NCBI GenBank assembly: GCA_903830945.1
Contig: CAIKVT010000058.1
Coordinates: 75,487-139,486 of the forward strand
Direction: 5' to 3'
DNA length: 64,000 nucleotides
Origin: an uncultured Elusimicrobia bacterium
Lineage (GTDB): Bacteria > Elusimicrobiota > Elusimicrobia > UBA1565 > UBA9628
Shown here piece by piece: positions 3,571-12,024 of the stretch; position 1 is the stretch's first letter; each line of letters opens with the position of its first letter. The notes beneath the pieces were generated by a model, which had not been told where the DNA came from, did not search any database, and saw only the letters and a program-made list of their open reading frames with translations. Made by a program: the position numbers and the translations under genes.

Positions 3571-3650
3571 CTACGCTGGCCAGATGGTCCAAGGCCTCGC
3601 GCAGCCCCGCGTAGCGGGGCTGCAGGCCCTCCTTGGCAATTTTGACAGCG
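3571..3650. repeat. decayed duplicate of the 3' end of the P-loop gene (left boundary repeat of the putative island)
   Basis: 3571-3608 matches 11061-11098 at 35 of 38 nt. Minus-strand translation of 3571-3650 (AVKIAKEGLQPRYAGLREALDHLAS) parallels the true C-terminus of the 11050..12024 gene (AVKAVHEGLREALDHLAG). Confidence 0.6.
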
Positions 3651-4966: not shown

Positions 4967-5380
4967 ATGAAAATGGCATTAGACCTAAGCAGCCTGCGCA
5001 AAGCCGCCGCCTCTCTCCAGCATGCCCTCAAAATCGCCGCCGCCCAGGCCGGCATGGACAGCGAAGACGTCATCCGCGCCGGCGTCATTAAGAACTTCGA
5101 GTTCACTTACGAGCTCTGCTGGAAGTTCATCAAGCGCTGGCTCGAAAAGAACTCTCCCGAAGCCGACCTCGAAGGCCTAACGCGCAAGGAACTTTTCCGC
5201 ATGGCCGCCGAAAGACACCTCATCAAGGACGTCGAGCCCTGGTTCAGGTACCACGCCGCCCGCAACGAAACCTCCCACACCTACGACTCGGCCAAGGCCG
5301 AAATGATCTTCGCAGCGGCCAAGCTCTTCGCGGCCGACGCCCAGGCGCTGCTCAAGGAACTCGAGAAGCGCAATGATTAA
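4967..5380 (+). CDS. hepT: HepT-like (HI0074 family) nucleotidyltransferase substrate-binding protein, toxin of a type VII TA pair
   Basis: 137 aa. Helical HI0074-type sequence with the NETSHTY region (Rx4HxY-like). AGGAG RBS. The second ATG at 4973 may be the true start. Confidence 0.8.
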   Translation: MKMALDLSSLRKAAASLQHALKIAAAQAGMDSEDVIRAGVIKNFEFTYELCWKFIKRWLEKNSPEADLEGLTRKELFRMAAERHLIKDVEPWFRYHAARNETSHTYDSAKAEMIFAAAKLFAADAQALLKELEKRND

Positions 5381-5684
5381 GGCCACTCCCGCCCAACTGC
5401 GCGCCATCAAGGATATCCTCGCCCGGCATCTGTGCGGGGCCGAGGTCCGGGCCTTCGGCTCCCGCGTCAGCGGCAAGCCCAAGCCATACTCCGACCTAGA
5501 TCTCGCCGTGTTCGCGCTCCAAAAGCTCGACGCGACCAGCCTCGAAGAAACGCGCGAGGCCTTTGCGGAGTCCGACCTTCCCTTCCGGGTCGATATCCTC
5601 GATTGGAACGCGATCTCCGAGGAATTCAAGAAGGTCATCGAAGCCGGCTACGAAGTCCTCCAGAAGTCCGGAGCTTGTAGGTAG
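5373..5684 (+). CDS. mntA: MNT-type minimal nucleotidyltransferase (HI0073 family), antitoxin partner of HepT
   Basis: 103 aa. GSRVSGKPKPYSDLDLAV nucleotidyltransferase motif (GS...DxD). 8-bp overlap (ATGATTAA) with hepT. Confidence 0.8.
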   Translation: MIKATPAQLRAIKDILARHLCGAEVRAFGSRVSGKPKPYSDLDLAVFALQKLDATSLEETREAFAESDLPFRVDILDWNAISEEFKKVIEAGYEVLQKSGACR

Positions 5685-5710
5685 GATAAGCCCGCTTCGG
5701 GCTCGCCGCC
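5673..5710. repeat. 38-bp direct repeat, copy 1 (GCTTGtAGGTAGGATAAGCCCGCTTCGGGCTCGCCGCC); overlaps the last 4 codons and stop of the MNT gene
   Basis: 37 of 38 identical to 9757-9794. Contains the small hairpin GCCCG-CTT-CGGGC. Both copies read ...ACR-stop in frame. Confidence 0.7.
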
Positions 5711-5925
5711 CTTGCCGAAGCCGCCCAGGATCTTCAATTCCTCAATGCGCACAGGCTCCCTCTTCCGCTGCCAGGGGCCCGCAGTCGGTAGGATACAATA
5801 GAAAACCGCCTTCGAGGCGGCCGAGTTCCGGCTCTAGGCAACGGCCAGCCTAGGCGGCTGGTAGGTCATCGTCGCCGGGAGGATTGGTAGACAGATTGGG
5901 TGAAGACGCGACGCTGGGGAGGAGC

Positions 5926-6258: not shown

Positions 6259-6604
6259 ATGCCCTCCGAAGTCGGCCGAGCCCGCCTTCTGCAATTATAA
6301 ATCTGGGTCCCTGGCGGGACAAAGTTAGAACCTGGCTGACCCTGGAAGACACGTCCTGCTTCTCAGCCCGGGTAGATGCCCTCGTCCAGAGGAATCCCTC
6401 CCTGAGCACGATGTTAGCAAATCGGTAAGCGCCGCTGATGGGGTGCCCTGAGGGGGGGCCAAGTACCAGACATTTTTCCCCAGCTCCGTCCGCGCCCTCG
6501 CTCCCTCCGCCCTCGCCGTTGCGCCCAGCCCCCGCTGATGTCATCCTTGACGCCCCCACGATCCCGACGACACTGGCATCCCCCGTGGCTAAACTGTATC
6601 ATAG

Positions 6605-6635
6605 CGACTGCGGGCACCCTCCGGGTGCCCGCAGT
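6605..6635. other. perfect 14-bp-stem / 3-nt-loop GC-rich hairpin (GACTGCGGGCACCC-TCC-GGGTGCCCGCAGTC) in a 580-bp non-coding stretch
   Basis: Read directly. No U-tract on either strand, so not a canonical intrinsic terminator. 5774-5790 shares CCCGCAGTCGG(T/A)AGG with its right half. Confidence 0.5.
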
Positions 6636-6840
6636 CGGAAGGGGGGAGGTCGGAGGGATGATGCTGGCGAGGCGAGGGGCTCGAAGCGGGGTTATTCTAT
6701 CTACAATCATCCGCCCGCATACTCCAGGCGGAGCATAAGGGCGGAAGGGGGGGACTCCAGTGGCAAAAGCGAAGCGTGGCTATCGGCTCAAAGTGCCGTT
6801 ATCCTTACCTACGTGCAAGAAAGAGCGCAACCTATTGCGA

Positions 6841-7386
6841 TTACTTCCAAGCGGAAAAAAATCCCCAGGCGGCAAGGCTTCCTGACGCAAGCTTGGCAAC
6901 AATCGCGTTGGCGCCCAGAGCATGCACCAGCGCATGATGGAGCAGCCAGGCTGCATAAAACGCGTAGGCGCAAAGCCCAACGGCCGAGAGCCAATGGATG
7001 TTCGCCAATTGCGTCATTCGGACCAACACATAGGCCGGTATCAATAATTGCAAATTCGCGGAAACCCGCATCGCCGTCGGAGCGTCGGTCTTGCCGCCGG
7101 AAACGAAAGCCAGCACCCCGAGGATGCCGGCGCCGGCCAAGACCAGGGTCGCCGAATTGATCGCCGCAAAAAGGAAACCCATCGCGTCTGGCCGCCAATG
7201 ACTCTGCAGCCAGTTGCAGAGATCGAAACCAATCTCACCGGCCGTGTTGTAGACCAGCGATCGCAAGAAGGAATCCGCGTATCCGCCTCCGCGCGGCATG
7301 GCAATAAAATATTTCTTAGGTGATAACAGTGCCGTCTTGGTTTCAATCCAATAATTCCACGGAGACGGCTCATGCACCCAAACCAT
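6841..7386 (-). CDS. integral membrane protein, function unknown
   Basis: 181 aa. Strong RBS (GAGGAGGAGAAATC-ATG). Several hydrophobic helices. Lies in the lower-GC nested segment. Confidence 0.55.
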   Translation of the reverse strand: MVWVHEPSPWNYWIETKTALLSPKKYFIAMPRGGGYADSFLRSLVYNTAGEIGFDLCNWLQSHWRPDAMGFLFAAINSATLVLAGAGILGVLAFVSGGKTDAPTAMRVSANLQLLIPAYVLVRMTQLANIHWLSAVGLCAYAFYAAWLLHHALVHALGANAIVAKLASGSLAAWGFFSAWK

Positions 7387-7398
7387 GATTTCTCCTCC

Positions 7399-8370
7399 TC
7401 AATACGACGCCCATTGTTTATGTTTTGAGTCCACGTGAGTGCAGTCCACAAAAATTGTCCCATAACACGGCGCGCCGGGATCCGAAACATAGCCCCAAAA
7501 GCCCGTATCCTTGACCTTGGCCGGATTCACGCCGCCGCCGGAGCAAACCGCGGCGTCGTAATTGGCAGCCTGAAATCTAAAATTCTGGTGCTCCTTAAGC
7601 AGGGGCTCTACTGGCAACTGAAGTTCGGAAAGCTGCTCCGGATATTTGCCGTTCCTATTCTTATATTGGGACACTGTCAGCCGCATGGTTTTGAGAGACA
7701 TTCTGGTCAAGGCTTCTTGCAACCCAACGTGTCCAGGCCGCACGGTCCAAAAGATTATGGCCAGAGGAAGACACAAGAAGATGGCGCCCAGAAGCTCTCC
7801 CAAAGCCTTTCTTCCGGCGCTAGTCATCGGAAGATAGATAACTCTCGTGCCGACCAGATAATCGTGGAGCGCACGCTTTTGTTTGGTGCAACCCACTAAA
7901 ATGCAGCCGGGGTATAGGCATGTCTGGGCGGCCCAGCGGCCCAGACAGCGGAGGTAAGTCAACGAAGAGCCATCGATGCGGACAATGCGGATGCCGACAA
8001 TCATCTTTCCAATTGTCTGCCCCTGGAAAGTCGCCGGCATCCAAACCCAATCGATCAAGAATATCAGCCAGCTAGCCCATCTAATCCAATGGCTGCTGAA
8101 CGGAACCCCAAACAGAAGAAGAACAGCCATAGGGAAAATCCCAACCAGCGCATCGATAAAATAGGCTCCGGCGCGGACGGCAAAGCCAGCGAGAGATCTG
8201 TCAGCCGTTGCGGCAGCCACGTCAGGAGTGACGGCCGGCTGATCCACCTGATTCAATAATCTGGCATTGCATTTCGTGCAGACCCCGCGGCCTTTGCCGA
8301 GCTCCCTGACCGCGCCGCCGCAATCAGGACAATGGGATAGTTCCGACGCTGCATGACGGGATTTGGCCAT
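7399..8370 (-). CDS. chimeric membrane protein: N-terminal zinc ribbon + RDD-family domain + C-terminal prepilin/pseudopilin-like module
   Basis: CPDCGG...CTKCN zinc ribbon. RDD-like core (RAGAYFIDALV...GQTIGKMIVGIRIV...DYLVGTRVI). C-terminal TM followed by QEALTRMSLKTMRLTVSQYKNRNGKYPEQLSELQ, which resembles the pilin alpha-1 helix and GspG-like NG(R/K)YP motif. Confidence 0.6.
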   Translation of the reverse strand: MAKSRHAASELSHCPDCGGAVRELGKGRGVCTKCNARLLNQVDQPAVTPDVAAATADRSLAGFAVRAGAYFIDALVGIFPMAVLLLFGVPFSSHWIRWASWLIFLIDWVWMPATFQGQTIGKMIVGIRIVRIDGSSLTYLRCLGRWAAQTCLYPGCILVGCTKQKRALHDYLVGTRVIYLPMTSAGRKALGELLGAIFLCLPLAIIFWTVRPGHVGLQEALTRMSLKTMRLTVSQYKNRNGKYPEQLSELQLPVEPLLKEHQNFRFQAANYDAAVCSGGGVNPAKVKDTGFWGYVSDPGAPCYGTIFVDCTHVDSKHKQWASY

Positions 8371-8479
8371 ATTTAAGATTATATTTTATTTTATTTATGC
8401 TCGCGATTAGCGGTCTTTGGGTGCACCCACCCCAGATGGACTTGCGCAATTTAATAATCCTATTATTATCTACTACTCC

Positions 8480-9733
8480 ATGCACAACGAATCCCCAAGC
8501 ACCGAAGGCGCAAACATCCAATCGAACAACTTCCATGTCGCCAGCACTTGGGCGAGAGCGGCCGCCTGGTTTATCGATGGATTCGCCTGCTCTCTATTGC
8601 TCAGTCCATTGCTCGTCAGCCCCATAAAGGCTCTCCTGGCAGGTGATTCCGTGGTGCTCTCTCTCCCGAGGATCCTATCAGGGTGGGCCGTCGTATTCGT
8701 TTATGCAGTCGTTTTCAATAAACACAAGAATGCGACGCCCGGAAAGATGCTGTTCGGCCTCAAGATCATCCCCGTCGCGGCGGACCGGCTGGATCTGTCA
8801 TGGACGCAAGTCGTTCTAAGAAGAGCGACTGAGATGCTGTTGGGCCTGCCATTCTCATTAGCCCCTCAGGCGGTTGCGTTCTTCCGTCCCGATCGCAGGC
8901 AACTGGCAGATCTCGTGGCAGGGACACGCGTGGTTCAGGGATCTTCCAGGGGAAAGGATGCCAAGCCTCGCTGGATATTGGGCTCGCTGTGCATCATCTA
9001 TTTTGGGCTGACAGGCATTTCAAAATTTTTGATGACAGCCAGAAATATAACTCCCGACGGCCTTCGCATAACGCGATCGATGAGAGCACTCACGCCTGCC
9101 TCACGGACCGGGACTTCTTATCACTCTCCGGCTGAGGGGGATCCCACCGTCCCAGGCGTCAGCATCCGTCACAATCTTGACGCAGCCAAAGATATGGGCG
9201 AGGCCGCAGAGCTTTCCCGCAAGGCTTGCGACGCGGGAAGTGGTGAAAGCTGTTTCGATCTTGGCGTCATGTACACAAAAGGTCTCGGGGTGAGCAAAGA
9301 CATGGAGAAAGCCATGGACTTCTATCGCAAGGCCTGCGACATGAAGATCGGTCAAGGTTGTTTTAATCTCGGTGTCAAACACGCGATAGGCCCAGGCACA
9401 CCCGAAGACAGGAGGGAAGCCAGGGAGCTCTTCCTCAAGGCCTGCGATCTCGGGGAGGGCAGAAGCTGTATCAATCTGGGCAACCTGCATGAACAAGGAC
9501 AAGGTGTGCCCAAGGATATCGAAAAAGCATTGGTGTTTTATCGCAAAGCCTGCGATTTAGGGATGGCCGAGGGGTGCGACAAGACAAAACTCCTCAGCGG
9601 CAGACAGACGTCCGGCTTGACCAATAGACCGGACAACAGAGAGAGCAGCACCGACGAGATGAACTGCCCAATGGGGATGAAAGCCGTAGCCACCGGTAGT
9701 GCCTTCCAGCCCTGGAAATGCGTCTCTGAATAA
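8480..9733 (+). CDS. chimeric protein: N-terminal RDD-family membrane domain + C-terminal Sel1-like repeats
   Basis: RDD-like region (WARAAAWFIDG...TPGKMLFGLKIIPV...ADLVAGTRVVQ). At least 4 Sel1-type repeats (KACDAGSGESCFDLGVMYTKGLGVSKDMEKAMDFYRKAC and similar). Divergent from the 7399..8370 gene across an AT-rich promoter region. Start 8480 (ATG) preferred over 8417. Confidence 0.6.
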   Translation: MHNESPSTEGANIQSNNFHVASTWARAAAWFIDGFACSLLLSPLLVSPIKALLAGDSVVLSLPRILSGWAVVFVYAVVFNKHKNATPGKMLFGLKIIPVAADRLDLSWTQVVLRRATEMLLGLPFSLAPQAVAFFRPDRRQLADLVAGTRVVQGSSRGKDAKPRWILGSLCIIYFGLTGISKFLMTARNITPDGLRITRSMRALTPASRTGTSYHSPAEGDPTVPGVSIRHNLDAAKDMGEAAELSRKACDAGSGESCFDLGVMYTKGLGVSKDMEKAMDFYRKACDMKIGQGCFNLGVKHAIGPGTPEDRREARELFLKACDLGEGRSCINLGNLHEQGQGVPKDIEKALVFYRKACDLGMAEGCDKTKLLSGRQTSGLTNRPDNRESSTDEMNCPMGMKAVATGSAFQPWKCVSE

Positions 9734-9756: not shown

Positions 9757-9794
9757 GCTTGCAGGTAGGATAAGCCCGCTTCGGGCTCGCCGCC
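9757..9794. repeat. 38-bp direct repeat, copy 2 (GCTTGcAGGTAGGATAAGCCCGCTTCGGGCTCGCCGCC)
   Basis: 37 of 38 identical to 5673-5710. Lies 23 bp downstream of the RDD-Sel1 gene stop. Confidence 0.7.
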
Positions 9795-9796
9795 TT

Positions 9797-9897
9797 CCCC
9801 TCAACGGCTGCGCCCAGTCGCATGGTATCGCAAAGCCGCCAATCAAGGCAATGCCGAAGCGAAAAACAAAATCGCCGAATTAGAGCGCACCAAATAG
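9797..9897 (+). pseudogene. orphan C-terminal fragment of a Sel1-repeat protein (…PVAWYRKAANQGNAEAKNKIAELERTK-stop), no start codon
   Basis: In-frame translation after repeat copy 2 gives a canonical Sel1 C-terminal repeat. An upstream in-frame TAG lies inside the repeat. Followed by the hairpin GGGTTG-GGCT-CAACCC. Confidence 0.4.
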
Positions 9898-10187: not shown

Positions 10188-11102
10188 CTACTTGCAGTCT
10201 TCCGGACAGTTGCACTTGTTCTCGAACTTCTCGTCGCAGCCCCCATCGCCGCAGGCCAGGCATATCCCGGCGTAGCCGCCGATCGGCTGACCGCAGGCGG
10301 CCGCCACTGTCCTCTCGACAAGGCCCGCGCAGCATTGCGGGATGGTGTTATACCCCGGGCCGTTCGGCACGGGGGCTTCGCCGAGCTTCTTGCAGTTGGA
10401 GGGGGCCGAGAGGGCGCGCTTCCGGGCGCTCCAGGACTCGAGGACGCGGAATCCGGACTTGAAATCATTCAAGCCCTCGCGGCTCGGAGCCGGTGCAGGC
10501 GCCGGGCCCGCGCGCGGAGCGCTTACGAGCGCCAGGTACGTCGTCGCGTCATGGTCGAAGAGGGCCATGACGATGCCGTCGTAGTCGACCAGGCCCATCG
10601 GCTGTTTGAGGAGCCACGGGGTCCTGGCGAACTGCCGGCCCCAGGACGCGATGTCCTTGTCGTCGCCGAGTTTCTTCGCCAGGCAAGAGCCAGGGCTGCC
10701 CGATTTTAAATCAAGGACCGCGTAGGGCTTGCCCGCGATGAAGGCCCAGGTCTGAAATCGCGAGGCGCCCTTAAGGAGTGCTTTCAGCCCCGCCGGGTCC
10801 TGCGCGGAGAGACGTCTGAACTCATCATCCTGCAGGTGATGTGTGGGCATCGGCACACCTAAGGAGATGTCTCCTTCATCGAGCGAGAGCCTGTCCCGTC
10901 TTGCCCAATCGACGATGCCGGGGCGCATCTTCTCATAGCACTTGCGGGCTTCCTGGGTCGGCGTCGCCGCTGACACGCGCAGCGGCAGTCCGAGCAGGAG
11001 CGCCAAGCCGCAGGTCAGGGCAGCCAAGGCGATGCCTCGAAGCCGCAGCTTAGCGCCTCGCCACGCCGGCCAGATGGTCCAAAGCCTCGCGCAGCCCCTC
11101 AT
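10188..11102 (-). CDS. secreted protein with Cys-rich C-terminus (hypothetical)
   Basis: Signal peptide (RLRGIALAALTCGLALLLGLPLRVSAA). Last 60 aa contain 11 Cys (CCAGL...CGQ...CLACGDGGCDEKFENKCNCPEDCK). The track start at 11102 overlaps the upstream gene by 52 nt. The true start is probably an internal CTG/TTG near 11047 after a GAGG. Confidence 0.5.
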   Translation of the reverse strand: MRGCARLWTIWPAWRGAKLRLRGIALAALTCGLALLLGLPLRVSAATPTQEARKCYEKMRPGIVDWARRDRLSLDEGDISLGVPMPTHHLQDDEFRRLSAQDPAGLKALLKGASRFQTWAFIAGKPYAVLDLKSGSPGSCLAKKLGDDKDIASWGRQFARTPWLLKQPMGLVDYDGIVMALFDHDATTYLALVSAPRAGPAPAPAPSREGLNDFKSGFRVLESWSARKRALSAPSNCKKLGEAPVPNGPGYNTIPQCCAGLVERTVAAACGQPIGGYAGICLACGDGGCDEKFENKCNCPEDCK

Positions 11103-12024
11103 GCACGGCCTTGACCGCCGCCGGCTTCCAGGAGCTCTGGGCCTCGCGCAGGAATGACGTCTTGTCCACCCGGTTGTCGAAGCGCGCCACCGGGAGGTGA
11201 TAGGTCTTGCCGTGCGCCTTGACGGTGACGGTCCCGGGCTGCTCCGAATTCTTGAGCAGCCACTCCATGTCGTCCTGACCGTAGTCGTTGAGCATGACCT
11301 CGATGGGCACGCCGTGGTGTAGGATCGACCCTGGGTCCTTCGGGTTGCTGCGGGCTTGGTTCTTGCGGCGCGATTCCTCGGGAGTCACCCAGATGTAGAG
11401 GATGGCGGCCGTTTCGAGTAGCTTGGGCGAGAGCCGGCCCAGAGAATATCGGTAGCCGAATGGCTCGGCCAGGGGCTGCTGGGCGTTGAGCGGGCCGCCC
11501 CGGGCGAATTCGATGACTAAAGTCTTGCTATCGAAAGTGTCGGGATAGCTCTCCTGCTTCTCCTTGATCATCTTGCTGGCTTCTGTCTCCAGGGAATCAG
11601 CCAGCTTTATCCTGTGGGATTTATCGAGTTGTCCCAGCCGCGCCGGGGCGCCGACTTTGACTGAAGCGCGGTCGAAGCGGTCCAAGAGGTCCAAGGTCGC
11701 GGATTTTGGATTGAGGAATCTCTTGCGCAGCAGGTCCTCGTGGTCCTCATTGATCAGCTCGATCAGTGTGCCCCAATCCAGGGCATTGCGGAAGGGATGC
11801 TCCGGGGATTGGAAGAACACACGTTCATGGCCCATGCTCACCAGTTCGTCGTCGACGCGCCGCATCATGTGCACGTAAGGGAAATCGTCGAGCTGCACGC
11901 TGTTGCCCATGTGGAAGTCCTGGCGCCGCAAGTCCGCGGGCATCAGGTCCAGATAACGACGCACCTCGGATTTTCCCGAGGCGGGCAGGGCGAGCAGCAG
12001 GACGGTGTCGAGGACCTTGTTCAT
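11050..12024 (-). CDS. P-loop NTPase / kinase-like protein (324 aa), function unknown
   Basis: Start ATG 12024 (MNKVLDTV). Walker-A-like LLLALPASGKSE. The track ORF extends to 12468, but that N-terminal 148 aa is antisense of the upstream gene. ATGA-coupled to the 12021..13121 gene. Confidence 0.6.
   Translation of the reverse strand: MNKVLDTVLLLALPASGKSEVRRYLDLMPADLRRQDFHMGNSVQLDDFPYVHMMRRVDDELVSMGHERVFFQSPEHPFRNALDWGTLIELINEDHEDLLRKRFLNPKSATLDLLDRFDRASVKVGAPARLGQLDKSHRIKLADSLETEASKMIKEKQESYPDTFDSKTLVIEFARGGPLNAQQPLAEPFGYRYSLGRLSPKLLETAAILYIWVTPEESRRKNQARSNPKDPGSILHHGVPIEVMLNDYGQDDMEWLLKNSEQPGTVTVKAHGKTYHLPVARFDNRVDKTSFLREAQSSWKPAAVKAVHEGLREALDHLAGVARR
11061..11098. repeat. 38-bp repeat, complete copy at the 3' end of the P-loop gene (partner of 3571-3608)
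   Basis: CCACGCCGGCCAGATGGTCCAAAGCCTCGCGCAGCCCC. On the minus strand it encodes ...HEGLREALDHLAG. Confidence 0.6.

What the first reader, a model, noticed from the sequence alone, without database searches (positions are those of the whole stretch)
7399..9733. Divergent pair of unusual RDD-domain chimeras: zinc-ribbon-RDD-pilin-like and RDD-Sel1
RDD-family membrane domains are usually stand-alone and poorly characterised. Here two diverge from one AT-rich promoter region. One is fused to an N-terminal CxxC...CxxC zinc ribbon and a C-terminal module that looks like a type IV pilin or pseudopilin body (TM helix then ...SQYKNRNGKYPEQLSELQ). The other is fused to at least four Sel1 repeats. Both lie inside the low-GC insert. 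This architecture suggests a surface, adhesion or signalling module acquired horizontally. I do not know of a described system with this composition.
Basis: partly seen in the sequence, partly recalled or inferred. Interest (0 to 1): 0.55.

Follow-up and report, generated by a model that had tools for sequence, protein, structure and literature searches.

The report
Membrane-tethered pilin-like and Sel1 RDD fusions
Two back-to-back genes on a small foreign-looking DNA islet encode inner-membrane proteins in which a poorly understood RDD membrane module carries either an uncleavable pilin-like head or cysteine-stapled Sel1 repeats, which is an unusual domain combination with no demonstrated function.

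Summary
Both ORFs are real and recur in at least six independent assemblies. Both pass Pfam RDD, and the plus-strand gene passes Sel1.

The pilin-like call on the minus-strand protein also holds, but only through its family. About 30 relatives, all from Elusimicrobiota MAGs, share an RDD plus C-terminal module. A profile of that module matches type IV pilin alpha-1 helices in the PDB. It also matches free-standing prepilins that carry a canonical GFTLIE leader and the same C-terminal DCTHxDSKGxxWxxY motif.

The fusion has no leader, G-1/F+1 or E+5. It cannot be a cleaved, polymerising pilin. It is a tethered pilin head.

- The zinc ribbon is unique to this protein within the family, although ZnR-RDD is common elsewhere.
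- RDD-Sel1 is a singleton. Its repeats are of the HcpC type.
- The pair lies in a 4.1-kb islet with GC3 near 0.6 against 0.8-0.9 in the flanks, bounded by 38-nt direct repeats.
- No conserved partner genes were found, and no pilus machinery in the window.

Function is inferred only: periplasmic binding domains coupled to an RDD membrane module. This is a new variant of known parts, of moderate interest.

The parts
7399..8370 (-). Gene for the 323-aa ZnR-RDD-pilin-like protein (stop codon included)
   Evidence: ORF. The identical protein was called in NCBI, JGI, ENA and Logan assemblies.
8257..8337 (-). N-terminal CxxC...CxxC zinc-ribbon-like segment (residues 12-38), inferred cytoplasmic
   Evidence: The motif is in the sequence. 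HMM hits are sub-threshold only (DUF7129 E 0.012, rubrerythrin-like E 0.009). AF2 gives strands 20-25 and 28-31 at pLDDT about 75. The Cys pairs align with ZnR-RDD proteins of Thioalkalivibrio, Neobacillus and Terriglobia. The segment is absent from all 21 aligned family members.
7852..8190 (-). RDD domain of protein 1 (residues 61-173). It has two TM helices, a hairpin, and a third hydrophobic segment that is probably re-entrant.
   Evidence: Pfam PF06271, 47.2 bits against 24.1. R66, D73 and D170 are invariant in the family. AF2 splits the third segment into H139-151 and H155-161. Both of its flanks are K+R rich across the family, 4.3 and 6.1.
7402..7818 (-). Pilin-like module (residues 185-323). 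It comprises a TM helix at 189-210 equivalent to pilin alpha1-N, an alpha1-C helix at 213-240, and a small beta head ending in DCTHVDSKHKQWASY.
   Evidence: Family profile A2 matches Geobacter PilA-N at 2.4e-5, PilA 8tj2 at 5e-4, Thermus PilA5 at 6e-4 and GspG at 3e-3. It matches prepilins carrying PF07963 at E 1e-21 to 1e-13. The AF2 model has pLDDT 84. There is no N_methyl hit.
8371..8479 (.). AT-rich divergent intergenic region (35.8% GC) with candidate back-to-back promoters
   Evidence: On the + strand there is a promoter-like site TGGACT-18-TATTAT at 8437-8466. On the - strand a TATAAT lies 7 nt before the ATG. These are consensus matches only.
8480..9733 (+). Gene for the 417-aa RDD-TM-Sel1 protein (ORF open from TTG 8417)
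   Evidence: P0173, 417 aa, in NCBI/ENA.
8537..8923 (+). RDD domain of protein 2
   Evidence: Pfam PF06271, 62.8 bits against 24.1. Its nearest relatives are about 200-aa proteins made of RDD plus one extra TM.
8966..9031 (+). Extra (fourth) TM helix linking the RDD domain to the Sel1 domain
   Evidence: Hydropathy peak at residues 166-184. The loops on either side of the weak third hydrophobic segment carry 7 K+R each.
9182..9589 (+). Hcp-type cysteine-paired Sel1 repeats (three full and one truncated, 36-aa period)
   Evidence: Pfam Sel1, 101.7 bits. HcpC 1OUV matches at E 4.1e-53 with the KACD...GC pairs aligned. A 108-nt DNA periodicity is present, and four KAC units.
6841..7386 (-). 181-aa multi-TM protein of unknown family, probably co-transcribed with the RDD-pilin gene
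   Evidence: It starts 12 nt after the RDD-pilin stop and has a GAGGAGGAG ribosome-binding site. It is present in every assembly of the locus. It has no Pfam, NCBIfam, PADLOC or PHROG hit, and no counterpart next to other family members.
5673..5710 (+). Left copy of the 38-nt direct repeat bounding the low-GC islet. It overlaps the last 3 codons and stop of the MNT antitoxin-type gene.
   Evidence: two copies in 64 kb, 0 expected by chance.
9757..9794 (+). Right copy of the 38-nt direct repeat (37/38 identical), 24 nt after the RDD-Sel1 stop

Best explanation
Both genes encode inner-membrane proteins built on one plan. The N-terminus is cytoplasmic and carries a zinc ribbon in protein 1. Next comes an RDD module made of two TM helices plus a re-entrant third segment, so both ends of the module face the cytoplasm. 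One further TM helix follows, and then a disulfide-stabilised periplasmic protein-binding domain.

In protein 1 the extra helix and the periplasmic domain are together a complete type-IV-pilin-like unit (alpha1-N, alpha1-C and a beta head). Its leader peptide and first residues have been replaced by the RDD module. It therefore cannot be cut by prepilin peptidase, cannot be N-methylated, has no Glu5, and cannot leave the membrane to polymerise.

In protein 2 the periplasmic domain is a short HcpC-like Sel1 solenoid.

I infer that each protein holds a periplasmic binding surface at the membrane and couples it to the RDD module. Published analysis attributes to that module a conserved intramembrane binding site facing the cytoplasm. 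Each protein would thus be a tethered adaptor or sensor, not a pilus, secretin or adhesin fibre. The most likely ligands of the tethered pilin head are other pilin-like proteins or their assembly platform in the same membrane.

Shown: the domain content, the family distribution, the absence of processing motifs, and the islet boundaries. Inferred: the topology, the periplasmic location, and the adaptor/sensor role. The pair arrived together on a 4.1-kb compositionally foreign islet. The confidence given is for the whole statement: the architecture alone I would put near 0.85, and the adaptor/sensor mechanism near 0.3.
For: Domains:
- RDD and Sel1 score above the curated cutoffs.
- HcpC matches at 4.1e-53.
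- The pilin module profile matches solved pilin alpha1 helices at 2.4e-5 to 3e-3, and prepilins with an RGFTLIELMIVVAIIGILAAIAIPKF leader and the same C-terminal motif at 1e-21 to 1e-13.
- Nine of 12 members of alignment A3 match NCBIfam PilA_Myxo and GspG. Among the 22 fused proteins, 4 match PilA_Myxo and 5 match GspG.

No cleavage site:
- The junction in all 22 aligned proteins reads GxGRKALxxL with no G-F-T-L-I-E.
- Pfam N_methyl hits only the free-standing prepilins.

Topology:
- Both flanks of the third hydrophobic segment are K+R rich, 4.3 and 6.1 family-wide and 7 and 7 in protein 2.
- AF2 breaks that segment at a conserved GLGF.
- TM prediction for the third helix of the RDD protein SppI was also inconclusive (PMC7568657).
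- Cys276, Cys302 and Cys310 are invariant in the head. The Sel1 repeats carry Cys pairs as in secreted HcpC.
- A close RDD relative carries a periplasmic SecDF P1-head domain in the same position.

RDD background: a binding site facing the cytoplasm and promiscuous fusions (PMC12419801), and the RDD protein SppI forming a regulatory complex with the membrane protease SppA (PMC7568657).

Islet.
Against: - There are no experimental data for any family member.
- The window protein's own pilin module gives no direct HMM hit. Its alpha1 region is the most diverged in the family.
- Foldseek of the module model against the PDB ranks Neisseria pilins first, but at E 3.4 and probability 0.12, which is not significant.
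- Topology rests on the positive-inside rule and a secondary-structure string. I had no coordinates and no dedicated topology predictor.
- No pilin, T4P or T2SS gene lies in the 64-kb window or beside relatives, so the proposed ligand has no support from gene neighbourhood.
- Neighbourhoods are not conserved beyond one sub-clade.
Confidence: 0.5

Rival explanations
1. Protein 1 is a true pseudopilin or pilin precursor. The ZnR-RDD part acts as an oversized leader that is removed, and the head is assembled into a type IV or type II secretion filament. It might instead act as the last, membrane-anchored subunit that terminates or anchors a filament.
For: The module has clear homology to prepilins, including alpha1-N residues such as AAIAIPKF in relatives. 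Elusimicrobia are known, from my own knowledge, to encode very many pilin-like proteins.
Against: No G-1/F+1/E+5 occurs at the junction in any of the 22 members. There is no N_methyl hit. The junction is conserved as a basic GRK linker, which fits a cytoplasmic loop. No pilus genes lie nearby. The anchoring-subunit version is not excluded.
Confidence: 0.1
2. The RDD modules are the functional core, acting as small cation/proton antiporters as reported for Halobacillus andaensis RDD. The periplasmic domains only localise or gate the transporter.
For: R66, D73 and D170, the residues reported as important for antiport, are invariant here (PMC5996927).
Against: The antiport assignment rests on one complementation study. 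B. subtilis SppI, which is 39% identical to that protein, showed no salt or pH phenotype (PMC7568657). Transport does not explain why a complete pilin unit or Sel1 solenoid is conserved on the outside.
Confidence: 0.1
3. Like SppI with SppA, each RDD protein is a regulatory subunit of a membrane enzyme such as a protease. The periplasmic domain recognises the substrate or signal.
For: SppI is the only RDD protein with a demonstrated partner (PMC7568657). Sel1 and pilin heads are protein-binding folds.
Against: No SppA-like or other membrane enzyme gene is adjacent, either here or in relatives. The co-transcribed 181-aa membrane protein has no recognisable family.
Confidence: 0.12
4. The chimeras are artefacts: a frameshift or misassembly has joined an RDD gene to a neighbouring prepilin or Sel1 gene.
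For: None was found beyond the rarity of the architectures.
Against: Identical 323-aa and 417-aa products occur in at least six assemblies from different projects. The RDD-pilin ORF is continuous in about 30 clusters and about 22 GTDB species. Truncated calls on one contig keep the same spacing, so they reflect gene-calling differences.
Confidence: 0.02

Closest known systems
Type IV pilins and T2SS pseudopilins (PilA, GspG/PulG; class III signal peptide proteins)
   Same: A hydrophobic alpha1-N helix is followed by an amphipathic alpha1-C helix and a small beta head. The profile matches Geobacter PilA-N, Thermus PilA5 and GspG. The C-terminal DCTHxDSKGxxWxxY motif is shared with a family of canonical prepilins.
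   Different: The module sits at residues 185-323 of a polytopic protein. It has no leader, no Gly-1, no Phe/Met+1 and no Glu+5, so it can be neither cleaved nor polymerised. No machinery genes are nearby.
B. subtilis SppI (YteJ) and other single-domain RDD proteins (YckC; H. andaensis RDD)
   Same: The RDD domain has the R/D/D signature. It has two firm TM helices and an ambiguous third (PMC7568657, PMC5996927).
   Different: Those proteins are 150-200 aa with short tails. Here an extra TM helix and a 110-230-aa periplasmic domain are appended, and protein 1 also has an N-terminal zinc ribbon.
Multidomain RDD fusions (VanZ-RDD, ZnR-RDD, RDD-SecDF-P1-head, RDD-TPR)
   Same: The RDD module serves as a membrane module joined to variable domains (PMC12419801; [P0029], 44, 54).
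   Different: The partner domains differ. A pilin unit as partner is restricted to Elusimicrobiota. A Sel1 partner was found only in this organism.
Helicobacter cysteine-rich proteins HcpB and HcpC (Sel1-like repeat proteins)
   Same: The repeat is 36 aa with a disulfide-forming Cys pair per repeat. HcpC matches at E 4.1e-53 and HcpB at 2.8e-17.
   Different: Hcp proteins are secreted through a signal peptide. Here the repeats are tethered to an RDD membrane module, number only 3.5, and carry a 50-aa Cys-containing tail.

Membership tests
RDD family (Pfam PF06271) | HMM score above the gathering threshold | tested here: met
   Protein 1 scores 47.2 bits and protein 2 scores 62.8 bits, against a cutoff of 24.1.
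RDD family (Pfam PF06271) | Conserved Arg at the start of TM1, Asp within TM1, and a second Asp near the C-terminal strand | tested here: met
   R66, D73 and D170 are invariant in alignment A1. Protein 2 has WARAAAWFID and RRQLAD (sequence).
Type IV pilin / pseudopilin (PF07963 N_methyl, TIGR02532) | N-terminal leader ending in Gly, followed by Phe/Met+1 and Glu+5 (the prepilin peptidase site) | tested here: not met
   There is no N_methyl hit for protein 1 or its module. The junction reads SAGRKALGELLG and is internal at residue 184. None of the 22 family members has GFxxxE.
Type IV pilin / pseudopilin (PF07963 N_methyl, TIGR02532) | Hydrophobic alpha1-N continuing into an amphipathic alpha1-C helix, homologous to that of known pilins | tested here: met
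   Profile A2 matches PDB pilins at 2.4e-5 to 3e-3 over the alpha1 region. AF2 gives helices 185-210 and 213-240. Support comes at family level. The window sequence alone gives no hit.
Type IV pilin / pseudopilin (PF07963 N_methyl, TIGR02532) | Globular alpha/beta pilin head fold | tested here: inconclusive
Type IV pilin / pseudopilin (PF07963 N_methyl, TIGR02532) | Genomic association with prepilin peptidase, ATPase, or platform genes | tested here: not met
   No prepilin motif occurs anywhere in the 64-kb window. No such genes lie next to relatives. This was not tested genome-wide.
Sel1-like repeat / Hcp family (PF08238) | Tandem 36-aa Sel1 repeats scoring above threshold | tested here: met
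   The score is 101.7 bits against 30.7, with three stretches. A 108-nt periodicity is present.
Sel1-like repeat / Hcp family (PF08238) | One Cys pair per repeat, as in HcpB and HcpC | tested here: met
   Four KACD...(G/S)C units are present. They align with the Cys pairs of HcpC 1OUV.
Zinc ribbon | Two CxxC knuckles on beta hairpins, recognised by a curated model | tested here: inconclusive
   CPDC and CTKC are present. The best HMM hits are below cutoffs: DUF7129 at 15.8 against 30, and TiaS at 12.9 against 27.3. AF2 shows hairpins at pLDDT about 75. Foldseek hits to TFIIB and RPA ribbons are weak, at E 1-4. The Cys pairs align with ZnR-RDD proteins in other phyla.

The most novel reading that the evidence does not exclude
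The RDD-pilin fusion is an uncleavable pilin mimic. It would insert its alpha1 helix and head among the cell's real pilins, or into the type IV pilus / type II secretion assembly platform. It would relay occupancy to, or be controlled by, the RDD intramembrane site and the cytoplasmic zinc ribbon. That would make it a previously unrecognised class of pilin-based regulator or filament anchor. The neighbouring RDD-Sel1 and 181-aa proteins would be its periplasmic and membrane partners.
Probability: 0.12. Interest if true: 0.65.

Novelty: new variant of a known kind. Interest (0 to 1): 0.35.

Why it matters
The function of the RDD domain is one of the more widespread unknowns in bacterial membrane biology. 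These two fusions put constraints on its topology. A pilin unit must have its N-terminus in the cytoplasm, and a disulfide-stapled Sel1 solenoid should sit outside the cytoplasm. Both are attached after the RDD module through one extra helix. Together with an N-terminal zinc ribbon, this implies that the RDD module starts and ends in the cytoplasm.

The RDD-pilin family also shows a complete pilin unit reused as a permanent membrane anchor plus binding head. If its partners are pilins or pilus platforms, it would be a new way to regulate or anchor type IV filaments in a phylum, Elusimicrobiota, that has an exceptional number of pilin-like genes. Without experiments it remains a domain-architecture curiosity.

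Tried and rejected
- Direct Pfam/NCBIfam detection of a pilin domain in the window protein gave nothing. Family profiles were needed.
- Full-length Foldseek against the PDB gave only noise and weak zinc-ribbon hits. The module-only search ranked Neisseria pilins top but was not significant.
- Conserved-operon search. tblastn of all window neighbours against 80 related loci found no p181, no Sel1 partner and no other shared neighbour. Endonuclease_1 and RnfC-like neighbours are conserved only within the closest sub-clade, which I take as synteny among close relatives.
- Recent duplication of the two RDD domains is rejected: 27% identity over 71 aa, E 0.006.
- Defence or phage origin: no PADLOC hit for the islet genes, and the only PHROG hit is through the Sel1 repeats.
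- Search for an empty integration site or alternative cargo in JGI metagenome contigs. The junction pattern gave no match. The repeat core was found only in two occupied-site contigs.
- Apparent truncated variants (100 aa and 139 aa) proved to be gene-calling differences at unchanged spacing.
- Organism identity could not be established. No rRNA or tRNA lies in the window, the sources give no names, and the window genome is not among the GTDB species representatives that matched.
- The literature search found no description of an RDD-pseudopilin fusion.
Full report
**1. The observation**

The two ORFs exist as described. One is 7399-8370 on the minus strand (323 aa, ATG start). The other is 8417-9733 on the plus strand (438 aa from a TTG).
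- Public gene calls for the identical sequence give 417 aa from ATG 8480, or a clearly truncated 360 aa. I take 8480 as the start.
- The 109-bp spacer between the start codons is 35.8% GC, in a window of 62.4% GC.
- The same gene pair, with the same neighbours, occurs in at least six assemblies from ENA, JGI and Logan. Misassembly or a private frameshift is therefore excluded.

**2. Domain content**

Pfam scores both proteins as RDD above the gathering cutoff of 24.1 bits: 47.2 bits for protein 1 and 62.8 bits for protein 2. Protein 2 also scores as Sel1 at 101.7 bits against 30.7.
- The Sel1 region has four KACD...C units at a 36-aa period. Three are full repeats and the last is truncated.
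- Its best solved relative is Helicobacter HcpC at E 4.1e-53, with the Cys pairs aligned.
- The zinc ribbon (CPDC...CTKC, residues 14-34) is visible in the sequence but falls below every HMM cutoff.
- AF2 builds two hairpins there at pLDDT about 75.
- ZnR-RDD proteins from Thioalkalivibrio, Neobacillus, Terriglobia and others align with both Cys pairs. ZnR-RDD is therefore an existing architecture.

**3. The pilin-like module**

The window protein alone gives no pilin HMM hit. Its homologues settle the question.
- About 30 clusters of roughly 300 aa share RDD plus the same C-terminal module at 32-46% identity. JGI already labels some of them 'YckC / pseudopilin PulG'.
- In GTDB species representatives, every locus that matches through to residue 323 is an Elusimicrobiota MAG. 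One further locus is titled only 'bacterium'. RDD-only matches come from other phyla.
- A profile of the module (A2) hits the alpha1 helices of Geobacter PilA-N (2.4e-5), PilA 8tj2 (5e-4), Thermus PilA5 (6e-4) and GspG (3e-3) in the PDB.
- In the metagenome protein set it recovers free-standing prepilins at E 1e-21 to 1e-13. These carry Pfam N_methyl, a textbook RGFTLIELMIVVAIIGILAAIAIPKF start, and the same C-terminal G-x-VFVDCTHTDSKGxxWxxY motif.
- NCBIfam PilA_Myxo and GspG models hit 9 of 12 sequences in the mixed alignment. Among the 22 fused proteins, PilA_Myxo hits 4 and GspG hits 5.

Homology to type IV pilin-like proteins is therefore established. Structural confirmation is weak. The AF2 module model (pLDDT 84) has two long helices and three or four short strands, and Foldseek ranks Neisseria pilins first only at E 3.4.

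**4. What the fusion is not**

In all 22 aligned members the junction is a basic linker (GxGRKALxxL). None has Gly-1/Phe+1/Glu+5. The module therefore fails the defining test of a prepilin. It cannot be cleaved or N-methylated, and it lacks the Glu5 used in filament packing. It is best described as a pilin unit permanently tethered to a polytopic membrane module.

The zinc ribbon is unique to the window protein within this family.

**5. Topology (inferred)**
- Family-wide, the segments on both sides of the third hydrophobic stretch of RDD are strongly basic, at 4.3 and 6.1 K+R. The stretch has a conserved central GLGF.
- AF2 breaks it into two short helices.
- Protein 2 shows the same pattern, with two prolines in the stretch and 7 K+R on each side.
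- Predictors were likewise undecided on the third helix of the RDD protein SppI (PMC7568657).
- A re-entrant third segment puts both RDD termini in the cytoplasm. That arrangement suits an N-terminal zinc ribbon. A pilin helix also needs it, since it must run from inside to outside. It also places the head, with three invariant cysteines, and the Cys-paired Sel1 repeats in the periplasm.
- One close RDD relative of protein 2 carries a SecDF P1-head, a periplasmic domain, at the same position.

**6. Relationship between the two genes and their context**

The two RDD domains are only distantly related, at 27% identity over 71 aa.
- RDD-Sel1 has no full-architecture relative. Word-indexed and exhaustive searches return only itself plus Sel1-only or RDD-only proteins. 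Its nearest RDD relatives are about 200-aa proteins with RDD and one extra TM.
- No relative of the RDD-pilin gene is next to a Sel1 gene or to the 181-aa gene.
- In the closest sub-clade, the RDD-pilin gene sits between an Endonuclease_1 gene and an RnfC-like gene. It sits elsewhere in other members.
- The divergent pair is therefore specific to this organism, not a conserved system.
- The 181-aa multi-TM ORF starts 12 nt after the RDD-pilin stop and has a strong GAGGAGGAG site, so it is probably co-transcribed.

**7. The islet**
- The four genes between about 5.7 and 9.8 kb have GC3 of 0.59-0.66. Flanking genes have 0.80-0.90. In other Elusimicrobiota the homologous gene matches its host composition.
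- A 38-nt direct repeat (37/38) lies at 5673-5710 and at 9757-9794. The first copy covers the last codons of the nucleotidyltransferase (MNT-type) gene and a small hairpin. The second lies 24 nt after the RDD-Sel1 stop. There are no other copies in 64 kb, and none are expected by chance.
- This supports acquisition as one 4.1-kb unit.
- I found no empty site and no alternative cargo in JGI contigs, so mobility is not demonstrated.

**8. Mechanism**

I commit to the following reading. Each protein presents a periplasmic protein-binding domain at the inner membrane, coupled through one helix to an RDD module.
- Published work attributes to RDD a conserved intramembrane binding site facing the cytoplasm, and frequent fusion to signalling or enzymatic domains (PMC12419801).
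- The RDD protein SppI has a regulatory partnership with the membrane protease SppA (PMC7568657).
- One report describes cation/proton antiport (PMC5996927), which B. subtilis SppI mutants did not corroborate (PMC7568657).
- The tethered pilin head most plausibly binds other pilin-like proteins or their platform. No neighbourhood evidence supports this.

The architecture is shown. The function is inference.

**9. Novelty and score**

All parts are known families. RDD fusions are common, and the RDD-pseudopilin combination is already auto-annotated in JGI data. I found no description of it in the searchable literature.

I rate it a new variant of a known kind and set interest at 0.35. It is a useful topological clue for RDD and an odd reuse of a pilin unit. 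It has no functional anchor and no conserved system around it.

Noticed in passing
window 5673-5710 and 9757-9794: A 38-nt direct repeat (37/38 identical) contains a GCCCG-CTTC-GGGC hairpin. It exactly brackets the 4.1-kb low-GC3 islet that holds p124, p181, RDD-pilin and RDD-Sel1. The left copy includes the last three codons and the stop of the MNT-type gene. There are only two copies in 64 kb.
   Followed up: partly
window 3573-3608 and 11063-11098: A second, outer 36-nt direct repeat (34/36 identical) lies here. The right copy is the 3' coding end (GLREALDHLAGV) of the 324-aa gene at 11049-12023(-). The left copy is a duplicate lying inside a 67-aa ORF. The roughly 7.5 kb between them holds an HTH_17 excisionase-like gene, a DUF7309/DUF6930 gene, the HepT/MNT pair and the inner islet. 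This suggests nested insertions with no integrase left.
   Followed up: partly
window 9823-9897 (+): An orphan reading frame encodes WYRKAANQGNAEAKNKIAELERTK*. It looks like the C-terminal half-repeat of an ordinary (non-Cys) Sel1 protein. It lies just outside the right direct repeat and may be a remnant of a disrupted gene.
   Followed up: no
window 4967-5684 (+): An overlapping HepT-like (NTase_sub_bind, E 4.6e-37) and MNT-like nucleotidyltransferase gene pair is present, a type VII toxin-antitoxin arrangement. It lies immediately left of the islet. The nucleotidyltransferase also matches PADLOC PDC-S09 models.
   Followed up: partly
window 6259-6840: About 580 bp between p124 and p181 have no convincing gene. 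A 15-nt perfect palindrome lies at 6605-6637, and a 24-nt inverted-repeat partner at 5774-5797. No Rfam family matches.
   Followed up: no
L085 6551-8879, L089, L026, L022, L005, L007, L008: In the closest Elusimicrobiota sub-clade, the RDD-pilin gene is preceded on the same strand by an Endonuclease_1 (PF04231) gene. It is followed by an RnfC-like gene and a BMC shell gene. A pilin-like head next to a secreted nuclease might hint at DNA uptake, but the linkage is limited to that clade.
   Followed up: partly
window 10188-11102 (-): A protein of 279-304 aa has a signal-like N-terminus and a Cys-rich C-terminal tail (CLACGDGGCDEKFENKCNCPEDCK). It has no family match in Pfam, NCBIfam, PADLOC or PHROGs.
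   Followed up: no
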